Both the position numbers and the translations under genes were made by a program. A model generated the notes under the pieces. That model saw nothing but the letters and a program-made list of their open reading frames with translations, did not search any database and was not told the DNA's origin. 64,000 nucleotides of DNA from Escherichia coli (lineage in GTDB: Bacteria; Pseudomonadota; Gammaproteobacteria; Enterobacterales; Enterobacteriaceae), in NCBI RefSeq assembly GCF_045037415.1, contig NZ_CP173438.1; one strand, 5' to 3'. Each line of letters begins with the position of its first letter. The first letter of the stretch is position 1. Positions 30,717-31,258 of the stretch are shown piece by piece.

Positions 30717-30786
30717 CTTATATTTTCGTGAAATCTGTCACTGAAGAAAATTGGCAACGGATGGGTAAAACCGTTATAACACTGTC

Positions 30787-30878
30787 ACCGGTCACCAGGA
30801 CCCCAGGCCGGATTTAAGACGAGGATGCACTGCTGTGTGTACTGTAGAGTCTGGCGGATGTCGACAGGCTCTATTTTT
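30787..30878 (+). ncRNA. mcaS: McaS-like (IsrA) small RNA with GGA-containing loops and intrinsic terminator
   Basis: ...AAGACGAGGATGCACTGCTGTGTGTACTGTAGAGTCTGGCGGATGTCGACAGGCTCTATTTTTTT matches remembered McaS; upstream TTGGCA-17nt-TTATAA promoter-like hexamers at 30751-30779. Confidence 0.6.
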
Positions 30879-31258
30879 TTATTCATTTTTTAGCCCTGTA
30901 AATAACCACATTCTCGCCGGGATTGGGGAATGAGTGACGAGATCAGTGGTGTCTGGCGGCTATCACGCCACAGATCAAATAACAGATAACCTACGGTAAA
31001 ATTTCGCTGACTGGAATTATCCCACCCTCGATCCATGTGATGGCTTGCCCTCATTTCTTCAGGCAGAAAAATCAAAAAATCGCTTAATACTATCAGACTG
31101 CGACAAACCAGACGCGAAACTGGGTACTTACTATTCGTTAGTCTTACCCTATCCACTTATCTTTTTGGTGGTATGGCTGCTGATGTTGCTGGCGTGGTAT
31201 CTTGTTGGCTTGCCGATAGGTCCGGGTATTTACCCACGTTTGTCTTAAGAGAGAACGG

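What the first reader, a model, noticed from the sequence alone, without database searches (positions are those of the whole stretch)
30717..31258. McaS-like sRNA sits between the islet and ogt, followed by a hydrophobic ORF tail that may be a remnant
The McaS-like RNA (30787-30878) lies next to ogt here, whereas I recall it between abgR and ydaL/smrA in K-12. That implies more than a simple cassette swap: the islet is on the smrA side of McaS, and the abg genes are missing on the ogt side. An ORF ending just before ogt (31045-31248, C-terminus ...[35 protein letters not shown]) could be a 3' remnant of a deleted membrane transporter such as abgT, but I cannot confirm this from memory.
Basis: partly seen in the sequence, partly recalled or inferred. 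Interest (0 to 1): 0.4.

Follow-up and report, generated by a model that had tools for sequence, protein, structure and literature searches.

The report
McaS sRNA beside abg deletion scar
This stretch holds the well-known McaS regulatory RNA followed by the scar of an old 5-kb deletion of the abg (p-aminobenzoyl-glutamate) genes. A decayed tail of abgR and the last 48 codons of abgT remain, and the abgT piece carries the promoter of the next gene, ogt. The arrangement is a common, already annotated E. coli variant.

Summary

- **McaS:** window 30787-30882 (+) is a full-length McaS/IsrA sRNA (Rfam RF00115, 112.8 bits against a gathering score of 42). Its promoter, CRP-like site and terminator are intact.
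- **The ORF:** the last 47 residues of ORF 31045-31248 are 100% identical to K-12 AbgT 462-508.
- **The deletion:** relative to K-12, 5,040 bp are missing: the 5' 695 nt of abgR, all of abgA and abgB, and the 5' 1,378 nt of abgT. The junction is at window 31100/31101.
- **What remains:** a decayed abgR 3' remnant (30890-31100, minus strand, 27% different from intact abgR) and a well-kept abgT 3' remnant.
- **Why the abgT piece is kept:** it holds the published NarL/Fis-regulated ogt promoter. By my mapping, NarL I is at 31125-31140, NarL II at 31158-31173, the -10 at 31198-31203 and the TSS near 31210. The junction therefore sits at about -110.
- **Frequency:** 1,169 of 5,426 complete E. coli genomes carry this allele. 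All alleles examined share one junction. RefSeq already annotates the AbgT pseudogene.
- **Independence from the islet:** the islet upstream of mcaS is a separate polymorphism, because islet+/abg+ genomes exist.
- **Age:** the deletion allele looks much older than E. coli's own diversification, and other Escherichia species also have mcaS next to ogt.

This is ordinary and of low interest.

The parts
30727..30742 (+). CRP-like site CGTGAaatctgTCACT upstream of mcaS, centred about 52.5 nt before the McaS 5' end
   Evidence: Read from the sequence. It is identical in K-12 and all Escherichia loci and near-identical in Citrobacter. mcaS is reported to be activated by cAMP-CRP (PMC3634460). Binding here was not tested.
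30751..30780 (+). Putative mcaS promoter: -35 TTGGCA (30751-30756), 18-nt spacer, -10 TATAAC (30775-30780)
   Evidence: Read from the sequence. The position fits a 5' end at 30787. It is conserved with K-12 and other Escherichia. The simple scanner missed it because the -10 ends in C.
30787..30882 (+). McaS/IsrA sRNA, full length, with three hairpins including the intrinsic terminator and U-tail
   Evidence: RF00115 at 112.8 bits against a gathering score of 42. The MFE fold of -30.1 kcal/mol reproduces the three Rfam hairpins. Four GGA motifs are visible. The 3' 60 nt are invariant across 14 loci.
30890..31100 (-). abgR 3' remnant (pseudogene): the last ~70 codons plus stop, decayed, with three 1-nt deletions
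   Evidence: It aligns to K-12 abgR 3' end (L002 7173-7386) with 58 of 214 columns different. Differences by codon position are 19/11/25, and 24 of 55 substitutions are G>A or C>T. PGAP annotates it as a LysR pseudogene in relatives.
31100..31101 (.). Deletion junction (about +/-3 nt). K-12 L002 7387-12426 (5,040 bp) are absent.
   Evidence: BLASTN mapping and alignments. The same junction ...ACT(G/T)CGACAAACC... is present in every deletion allele examined: L001, L004-L007 and E69.
31101..31248 (+). abgT 3' remnant: 48 sense codons plus stop, 97-98% identical to intact abgT
   Evidence: PGAP annotates an 'AbgT family transporter' pseudogene.
31045..31248 (+). Mechanical chimeric ORF (TTG start, 67 aa): antisense of the abgR remnant, then the junction, then the AbgT C-terminus. 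Judged non-coding.
   Evidence: No Shine-Dalgarno-like motif precedes the TTG. Most of it lies upstream of the ogt TSS. The frame is broken by a 1-nt deletion in E. whittamii, E1V33 and SCPM.
31125..31140 (+). ogt promoter NarL I 7-2-7 site (TACTTACTATTCGTTA), centred at -77.5. The Fis site overlaps it in K-12.
   Evidence: Mapped by me from PMC7419079 onto the window. The sequence is identical to K-12.
31158..31173 (+). ogt promoter NarL II 7-2-7 site (TATCTTTTTGGTGGTA), centred at -44.5
   Evidence: Mapped from PMC7419079. Identical to K-12.
31195..31210 (+). ogt extended -10 (TGgTATCTT, hexamer 31198-31203) and inferred transcription start near 31210
   Evidence: The -10 hexamer 5'-TATCTT-3' and the p11C numbering are given in PMC7419079. 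The coordinates are my inference from that numbering.
31259..31774 (+). ogt (methylated-DNA-protein-cysteine S-methyltransferase), intact
   Evidence: It shows 1.9% divergence from K-12, all at third codon positions.

Best explanation
The region has two components.

1. An intact mcaS gene. McaS is an Hfq- and CsrA-binding sRNA that represses csgD and activates flhDC and pga. Here it has its own CRP-type promoter and intrinsic terminator.

2. Immediately downstream, the scar of a single 5,040-bp deletion. It removed the 5' three-quarters of abgR, all of abgA and abgB, and the first 1,378 nt of abgT.

The two remnants have different fates. The abgR tail has no known function and has decayed. The abgT tail is conserved because in E. 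coli the ogt promoter lies inside the last ~110 bp of the abgT coding sequence. That promoter comprises two NarL sites, a Fis site and an extended -10. The deletion ends just upstream of it, at about -110.

The 67-aa ORF is a by-product of this scar and not a gene. Strains with this allele should keep normal McaS expression and nitrate/NarL-inducible ogt, and should be unable to import and cleave p-aminobenzoyl-glutamate.

Shown here: the identities, the junction, allele frequency and conservation. Inferred: expression, promoter function in this strain, and loss of the phenotype.
For: - **McaS:**. Promoter and terminator conservation.
- **Deletion mapping:**
- **AbgT identity:** 47/47 residues.
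- **Existing annotation:** PGAP pseudogene calls for AbgT and LysR.
- **One junction:** all six other alleles examined share it.
- **Frequency:** 1,169 of 5,426 complete genomes cover at least 80% of 30717-31258.
- **Independence of the islet:** islet+/abg+ genomes exist.
- **ogt promoter architecture:** PMC7419079. Its Supplementary Fig. S4 shows CFT073, APEC O1 and E2348/69 with the junction motif TATGCTTAAATACTGCGACAAACC.
- **Decay signature of the abgR remnant:** 58 of 214 columns differ, three frameshifting 1-nt deletions, and a bias towards G>A and C>T changes. With a Citrobacter outgroup, 31 changes fall on the deletion branch and 10 on the K-12 branch.
- **Other Escherichia:** in all five other Escherichia-lineage loci, both NarL sites lie inside the retained abgT segment.
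Against: - No expression data exist for this strain. The ogt TSS and NarL site coordinates are transferred from K-12 experiments.
- Three substitutions at about -4, -1 and +1 of the ogt promoter distinguish all deletion alleles from K-12. Their effect is unknown.
- The 27% divergence of the abgR remnant is far more than within-E. coli neutral divergence (about 5% at third positions). Simple in-situ decay since a recent deletion therefore does not explain it. An old allele, or an unusual mutation rate, has to be assumed.
Confidence: 0.9

Rival explanations
1. The window shows the ancestral empty site, and the abg operon was inserted between mcaS and ogt in the K-12-type lineages. On this view nothing was deleted here.
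For: None of the 12 species-representative genomes found with the McaS core pattern has an intact abg operon next to mcaS. McaS-ogt adjacency is therefore the commoner state across species.
Against: Both edges carry truncated coding sequence of the missing genes, in the right orientation and order. These are 214 nt of the abgR 3' end and 149 nt of the abgT 3' end, the latter translating in frame to AbgT 462-508. E. albertii, E. whittamii, E1V33, SCPM and one C. amalonaticus also keep abgR and/or abgT fragments. In those species, third-position-biased differences in the abgT fragment (for example 18 of 27) point to a coding past.
Confidence: 0.03
2. ORF 31045-31248 is a new, expressed small membrane protein made from the last transmembrane helix of AbgT.
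For: The ORF is open, hydrophobic and 97-98% conserved at the DNA level with intact abgT. The 12-bp deletion in CFT073-type alleles keeps the frame.
Against: - The start is TTG with no visible ribosome-binding site.
- No promoter is known upstream, and the known ogt TSS lies near its 3' end.
- The N-terminal 20 codons come from decaying abgR antisense and vary between alleles.
- The frame is broken in E. whittamii, E1V33 and SCPM.
- Conservation is already explained by the ogt promoter.
- Differences between CFT073-type alleles and K-12 are spread evenly over codon positions, 3/3/4.
Confidence: 0.03
3. The deletion is recent and arose within the B2-type lineage. On this view the strong divergence of the abgR remnant reflects locally accelerated mutation, not great age.
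For: - Flanking genes are E. coli-like: ogt, fnr and smrA differ from K-12 by 4-6% at third positions.
- mcaS and AraC are almost identical to those of abg+ strain 405.
- The abgR-side breakpoint could not be matched between E. coli and the E. whittamii group.
- E. albertii has different breakpoints. Deletions here may therefore be recurrent.
Against: - Outgroup-polarised decay on the deletion branch is about 15-19% (31 to 47 of 214 sites). This is at least three times within-species neutral divergence and close to the per-lineage E. coli-E. whittamii third-position divergence (26-35% in total).
- The substitution spectrum is ordinary, with 35 transitions, 20 transversions and a bias towards G>A and C>T.
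- The abgT-side boundary lies within about 5 nt in E. coli and three cryptic-clade genomes.
Confidence: 0.2

Closest known systems
McaS (IsrA/IS061) sRNA of E. coli K-12, Rfam RF00115
   Same: - Full-length match over the same three hairpins, including the terminator.
- All four GGA motifs are present.
- The 3' 60 nt are identical, and the promoter and CRP-like site are the same.
- It occupies the same position downstream of smrA.
   Different: - 11 of 96 nt differ from K-12. Nine of them lie within nt 6-20, the inner stem pairs and loop of hairpin 1, and the pairing is maintained (C-G/G-U becomes U-G/C-G). The other two are single changes at nt 36 and nt 82.
- The neighbours differ: an AraC-family gene lies upstream instead of smrA, and an abgR stump lies downstream instead of intact abgR.
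abgR-abgABT locus of E. coli K-12 (p-aminobenzoyl-glutamate uptake and hydrolysis)
   Same: Same chromosomal slot between mcaS and ogt. The two ends of the locus are still recognisable.
   Different: 5,040 bp are missing. No AbgA, AbgB, functional AbgT or AbgR can be made.
E. coli K-12 ogt promoter (NarL I at -77.5, NarL II at -44.5, Fis, extended -10; PMC7419079)
   Same: The window has both NarL sites with K-12 sequence and K-12 spacing, and the same extended -10.
   Different: - Sequence upstream of about -110 is abgR remnant instead of abgT.
- There is one substitution between the sites (about -64) and three around the start site.
ogt promoter variant of CFT073, APEC O1 and E2348/69 (PMC7419079, Supplementary Fig. 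S4)
   Same: Same abg deletion junction motif ...ACTGCGACAAACCAGACGCG....
   Different: [quoted passage not shown] The window allele lacks them and keeps the K-12-type tandem arrangement.

Membership tests
McaS/IsrA sRNA (RF00115) | Covariance-model score above the curated gathering threshold over the full model | tested here: met
   112.8 bits against 42, model positions 1-96 of 96, E = 3.5e-20.
McaS/IsrA sRNA (RF00115) | Three stem-loops, the last being an intrinsic terminator with a U-tract | tested here: met
   The CM alignment has no non-canonical pairs. The independent MFE fold gives the same three hairpins at -30.1 kcal/mol. The z-score against shuffles is only -1.2.
McaS/IsrA sRNA (RF00115) | GGA motifs for CsrA binding (PMC4824073 mentions two conserved GGA sites) | tested here: met
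   GGA occurs at window 30797-30799, 30810-30812, 30823-30825 and 30855-30857. Binding itself was not tested.
McaS/IsrA sRNA (RF00115) | Conserved locus and cAMP-CRP-dependent promoter | tested here: inconclusive
   The promoter and CRP-like site are identical to K-12 and conserved across Escherichia and Citrobacter. CRP dependence is taken from the literature and was not measured in this strain.
McaS/IsrA sRNA (RF00115) | Expression as a ~95-nt Hfq-binding RNA that regulates csgD, flhDC and pgaA | not testable with these tools
   Needs Northern blotting, RNA-seq and reporter assays.
AbgT family transporter (remnant, not a functional member) | Sequence homology to AbgT | tested here: met
   47/47 identity to K-12 AbgT residues 462-508. 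The DNA is 98.3% identical over 301 nt including the ogt start.
AbgT family transporter (remnant, not a functional member) | Full-length ~508-aa multi-helix transporter | tested here: not met
   Only 48 codons remain and the 5' 1,378 nt are deleted. PGAP annotates it as 'incomplete; missing N-terminus'.
NarL/Fis-regulated ogt promoter (PMC7419079) | Tandem 7-2-7 NarL sites at -77.5 and -44.5 and an extended -10 TGnTATCTT | tested here: met
   All three elements are present with K-12 sequence and spacing. The coordinates were mapped by inference from the paper's numbering.
NarL/Fis-regulated ogt promoter (PMC7419079) | Nitrate- and NarL-dependent activation | not testable with these tools
   Needs reporter fusions in this allele.

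The most novel reading that the evidence does not exclude
The abg-deletion allele is not a recent strain-level loss. On this reading it is an ancient allele, about as old as the split between E. coli and the cryptic Escherichia clades. It has coexisted with the intact abg operon and has moved between lineages by homologous recombination through the invariant McaS 3' half and the ogt promoter. Its boundaries would be set by selection to keep the mcaS terminator and the complete NarL/Fis ogt promoter. This would imply long-term maintenance of both abg+ and abg-negative states in Escherichia.
Probability: 0.35. Interest if true: 0.35.

Novelty: already known. Interest (0 to 1): 0.12.

Why it matters
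There is little new here.

- McaS is a characterised sRNA.
- The abgT and abgR stumps are already flagged as pseudogenes in RefSeq.
- The variant ogt promoters have been aligned in print.

There are two practical points.

1. Annotation pipelines and readers should treat the 67-aa ORF and the 88-aa antisense ORF as scar products.
2. About a fifth of complete E. coli genomes, including CFT073, APEC O1 and E2348/69, lack the p-aminobenzoyl-glutamate salvage genes while keeping McaS and a complete ogt promoter.

The possible old age and lateral spread of the deletion allele is a modest population-genetics curiosity.

Tried and rejected
1. **Shared junction with the E. whittamii group.** I tried to show that the E. 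whittamii, E1V33 and SCPM genomes share the exact E. coli junction. Only the abgT-side boundary agrees, within about 5 nt. The ~40-nt spacer on the abgR side gives no alignment better than shuffled controls against K-12 or against the window remnant. Two MAFFT runs also placed it differently. Identity of the event is therefore left open.

2. **E69 as proof of great age.** 'E. coli' E69 is a divergent lineage: ogt differs from the window at 23% of third positions and uspE at 25%. It has the identical junction. However, its AraC gene, left of the junction, differs from the window at only 5.6% of third positions. E69 probably acquired the allele by recombination, so it is evidence for transfer and not for age.

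3. **Consensus promoter/terminator scan.** It found neither the mcaS promoter, the McaS terminator nor the ogt promoter. All three deviate from the scanner's rules, so the negative result is uninformative.

4. **Permissive Rfam scan of 30600-31400.** It found nothing besides McaS, apart from a chance SNORD70 hit at E = 0.44.

5. **Literature searches.** Searches for 'McaS + abgR' and 'abgT + phylogroup B2' found no paper describing the deletion as such.

6. **Microhomology at the junction.** At most G/TACA is shared, so there is no informative repeat. No IS or other mobile element lies at the junction.

Full report
**What is there**

The window is E. coli, in the reverse orientation of the K-12 map. 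The gene order, with coordinates, is as follows:

| Feature | Coordinates | Strand |
|---|---|---|
| smrA | 26507-27070 | - |
| DHA2-type MFS gene | 27265-28779 | - |
| HlyD-family gene | 28776-29807 | - |
| AraC-family gene | 29901-30716 | + |
| the finding's interval | 30717-31258 | |
| ogt | 31259-31774 | + |
| fnr | from about 31969 | + |

An Rfam scan of the whole window puts McaS/IsrA (RF00115) at 30787-30882 (+). It covers the full model at 112.8 bits against a gathering score of 42, with every pair canonical. An independent MFE fold gives the same three hairpins (-30.1 kcal/mol). A permissive scan of 30600-31400 finds no other RNA family.

**Comparison with K-12 and other E. coli**

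In a K-12 genome the order is smrA, mcaS, abgR (convergent with mcaS), abgA, abgB, abgT, ogt (mcaS mapped). BLASTN of window 30601-31400 against that locus gives two blocks that abut at window 31100:
- 30681-31100 matches the mcaS region plus the last 214 nt of abgR, at 80% identity.
- 31100-31400 matches the last 149 nt of abgT plus ogt, at 98.3% identity.

The missing K-12 segment is L002 7387-12426, which is 5,040 bp. It comprises 695 nt of abgR, all of abgA and abgB, and 1,378 nt of abgT.

At the protein level, residues 21-67 of ORF 31045-31248 are 47/47 identical to AbgT 462-508. The first 20 codons of the ORF are the antisense of the abgR stump plus the junction. RefSeq annotates the same bases in identical genomes as an incomplete 'AbgT family transporter' pseudogene. 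In several relatives it also annotates a frameshifted 'LysR family' pseudogene.

**How common it is, and whether it is one event**

- 5,404 of 5,426 complete E. coli genomes match part of 30717-31258.
- 1,169 of them (21.5%) cover at least 80% of it, meaning they carry the deletion allele.
- By best-place identity, 569 genomes are at 99% or more, 295 at 95-99% and 354 at 90-95%. These bands count all matching genomes, so their sum slightly exceeds 1,169.
- 1,316 genomes cover at least 80% of 26400-31900. This implies roughly 150 or more genomes with the islet and an intact abg operon. Strains 405, 755, MLI108K3 and B19429 are examples.

Alleles sampled from each identity band (L001, L004-L007) share the same junction...ACT(G/T)CGACAAACCAGACG.... 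They differ by secondary changes: a 20-bp deletion in the abgR stump, a 12-bp deletion in the abgT stump, and point substitutions. This points to a single deletion event followed by divergence. The junction shows at most a few bases of microhomology and no mobile element.

**Why the two stumps look so different**

The abgR stump (30890-31100, minus strand) differs from every intact abgR allele examined at 58 of 214 columns (27%). It has three 1-nt deletions. Differences are spread over codon positions 19/11/25, and G>A or C>T changes account for 24 of 55 substitutions. This is the signature of a decaying pseudogene.

The abgT stump differs from K-12 at only 5 of 149 positions. The explanation is in the literature. 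The E. coli ogt promoter has NarL 7-2-7 sites centred at -77.5 and -44.5, a Fis site overlapping the upstream NarL site, and an extended -10 with the hexamer TATCTT (PMC7419079). Mapping these onto the window is my inference from the paper's p11C numbering:

| Element | Window coordinates |
|---|---|
| extended -10 (TGgTATCTT) | 31195-31203 |
| transcription start | about 31210 |
| NarL II (TATCTTTTTGGTGGTA) | 31158-31173 |
| NarL I (TACTTACTATTCGTTA) | 31125-31140 |

The junction therefore sits at about -110, just outside the -105 to +1 fragment that the paper draws. The 'hydrophobic ORF tail' thus contains the ogt promoter and 5' UTR.

The same paper's Supplementary Fig. S4 aligns the ogt promoters of APEC O1, E2348/69 and CFT073. 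These begin TATGCTTAAATACTGCGACAAACCAGACGCG, exactly the L004-type junction. [quoted passage not shown] From my own knowledge, those three strains belong to phylogroup B2.

The window allele lacks the 12-bp deletion and keeps the K-12-type tandem spacing.

**McaS itself**

The 70 nt upstream of McaS contain three recognisable elements:
- a CRP-like site (CGTGAaatctgTCACT, 30727-30742);
- a -35 (TTGGCA, 30751-30756);
- a -10 (TATAAC, 30775-30780).

All three are identical to K-12 apart from five substitutions in the -35/-10 spacer and just before the start. They are conserved in all Escherichia loci, and the CRP-like site is also conserved in Citrobacter. McaS is reported to be cAMP-CRP activated, to repress csgD and to activate flhDC and PGA (PMC3634460; PMC6061853). 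It is also reported to carry conserved GGA sites for CsrA (PMC4824073).

The window allele differs from K-12 at 11 of 96 nt. Nine of these lie in the inner stem pairs and loop of hairpin 1, with pairing kept. All four GGA motifs are retained, and the 3' 60 nt are invariant across 14 loci. Nothing suggests that the deletion affects McaS, since its terminator ends 8 nt before the abgR stop codon.

**Other species and the age of the allele**

An exact-pattern scan of one genome per species with the McaS core found 12 loci. None has an intact abg operon next to mcaS. The segments of the K-12 mcaS-to-ogt reference that each locus retains are listed below (mcaS start = 1; abgR 103-1011; abgT 3979-5505).

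| Genome(s) | Retained segments |
|---|---|
| E. coli deletion alleles and 'E. coli' E69 | 1-316 and 5357 onwards |
| E. whittamii, Escherichia sp. E1V33, 'E. coli' SCPM-O-B-8794 | 1-133, about 40 nt that cannot be assigned, then about 5359/5362 onwards |
| E. albertii | 1-93, 242-335, then about 5371/5378 onwards |
| one C. amalonaticus (S646) | 43-531 and 5413 onwards |
| the other Citrobacter, Pseudescherichia vulneris, ESNIH1, UBA7338 | no recognisable remnants |

In every Escherichia-lineage locus the retained abgT segment includes both NarL sites. This fits promoter retention as the constraint on the right-hand boundary.

E. albertii keeps about 19 nt more of abgR and about 14 nt less of abgT than E. 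coli. Its junction therefore cannot be derived from the E. coli one, or the reverse, by simple erosion.

I used the C. amalonaticus S646 remnant as an outgroup. Of 57 sites where K-12 and the window differ in the abgR stump, 31 are derived on the window branch, 10 on the K-12 branch and 16 are unresolved. This gives about 15-19% change on the deletion branch. For comparison, third-position divergence is as follows:

| Comparison | ogt | fnr | smrA | uspE |
|---|---|---|---|---|
| window vs K-12 | 5.8% | 4.4% | 5.3% | - |
| window vs E. whittamii | 35% | 15.5% | 29% | 26% |

On a neutral-decay reading, the allele is several times older than the diversification of E. coli and roughly as old as the split from the cryptic clades. 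This is an inference from about 200 nt and assumes no local mutation hotspot. I give it moderate confidence.

E69 has the identical junction. It is E. coli-like to the left of it (AraC 5.6% at third positions) and a different lineage to the right (ogt 23%, uspE 25%). This indicates that the allele can be transferred by homologous recombination.

**Verdict**

The locus is an intact, known sRNA gene next to a common, annotated deletion scar. The conserved half of that scar is explained by a published promoter. Novelty: already known. Interest is low. The only mildly unexpected element is the apparent antiquity and lateral mobility of the deletion allele.

Noticed in passing
window 30681-30716; L002 6965-7000; L018 4342-4443; L014 9758-9858: K-12, which lacks the islet, still has about 36 nt homologous to the 3' end of the islet's AraC-family gene just upstream of the mcaS promoter. 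E. whittamii and SCPM-O-B-8794 keep about 102 nt of it, with third-position-biased differences (5/3/14). The MFS/HlyD/AraC islet therefore looks ancestral and was deleted in K-12-type lineages, not inserted here.
   Followed up: partly
window 27265-28779 (-): The islet's DHA2 MFS gene is a 504-aa open frame in the window. RefSeq annotates the corresponding gene as 'frameshifted' in all six relatives with a full-length islet that were examined (for example L001 1608-3063, equivalent to window 27324-28779), and as partly deleted in L005-L007. The C-terminal end may be out of frame relative to reference proteins.
   Followed up: no
window 31147-31158 versus L004-L006 and L017: Within the deletion alleles there are two ogt promoter types. 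The window type has K-12 spacing of the NarL sites. The CFT073 type has a 12-bp deletion that moves NarL I to about -65.5 and alters the first base of NarL II. Nitrate regulation of ogt may differ between them.
   Followed up: partly
window 30792-30806 (McaS nt 6-20): The inner stem pairs and loop of McaS hairpin 1 are hypervariable between E. coli alleles and between species, while the stem pairing and the loop GGA are kept. The 3' 60 nt are invariant from Escherichia to Citrobacter and Pseudescherichia.
   Followed up: partly
L018 about 4650-4710; L022 about 150-207; L014 about 10070-10121: In E. whittamii, E1V33 and SCPM-O-B-8794, about 40 nt between the short abgR stump and the abgT stump match nothing in K-12's deleted segment or in the window remnant better than shuffled controls do. 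Their origin is unexplained.
   Followed up: yes
window 16723-16843 (-) and 23803-23920 (-): MicC (122 bits) and FnrS (135 bits) are both present and only about 7 kb apart. In the K-12 locus, intR of a prophage sits next to ttcA (L002 1-822). Strain 405 has ompN-uspF-ttcA contiguous. The window strain therefore probably lacks the Rac prophage at this site.
   Followed up: no
one search hits H39 (strain 0H26) and H60 (strain 14EC033): A few genomes show further rearrangements of this locus. One has an IS1-associated form that keeps smrA, an AbgT stump and ogt but only 29% of the query. Another matches only from about window 31180 onwards. mcaS may be lost in these genomes.
   Followed up: no
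window 30890-31156 (-): An 88-aa antisense ORF runs through the abgR stump and across the junction. The three 1-nt deletions in the stump sum to 3, so the frame is restored at both ends. It appears to be a mechanical ORF with no upstream promoter, because the abgR promoter was deleted.
   Followed up: partly
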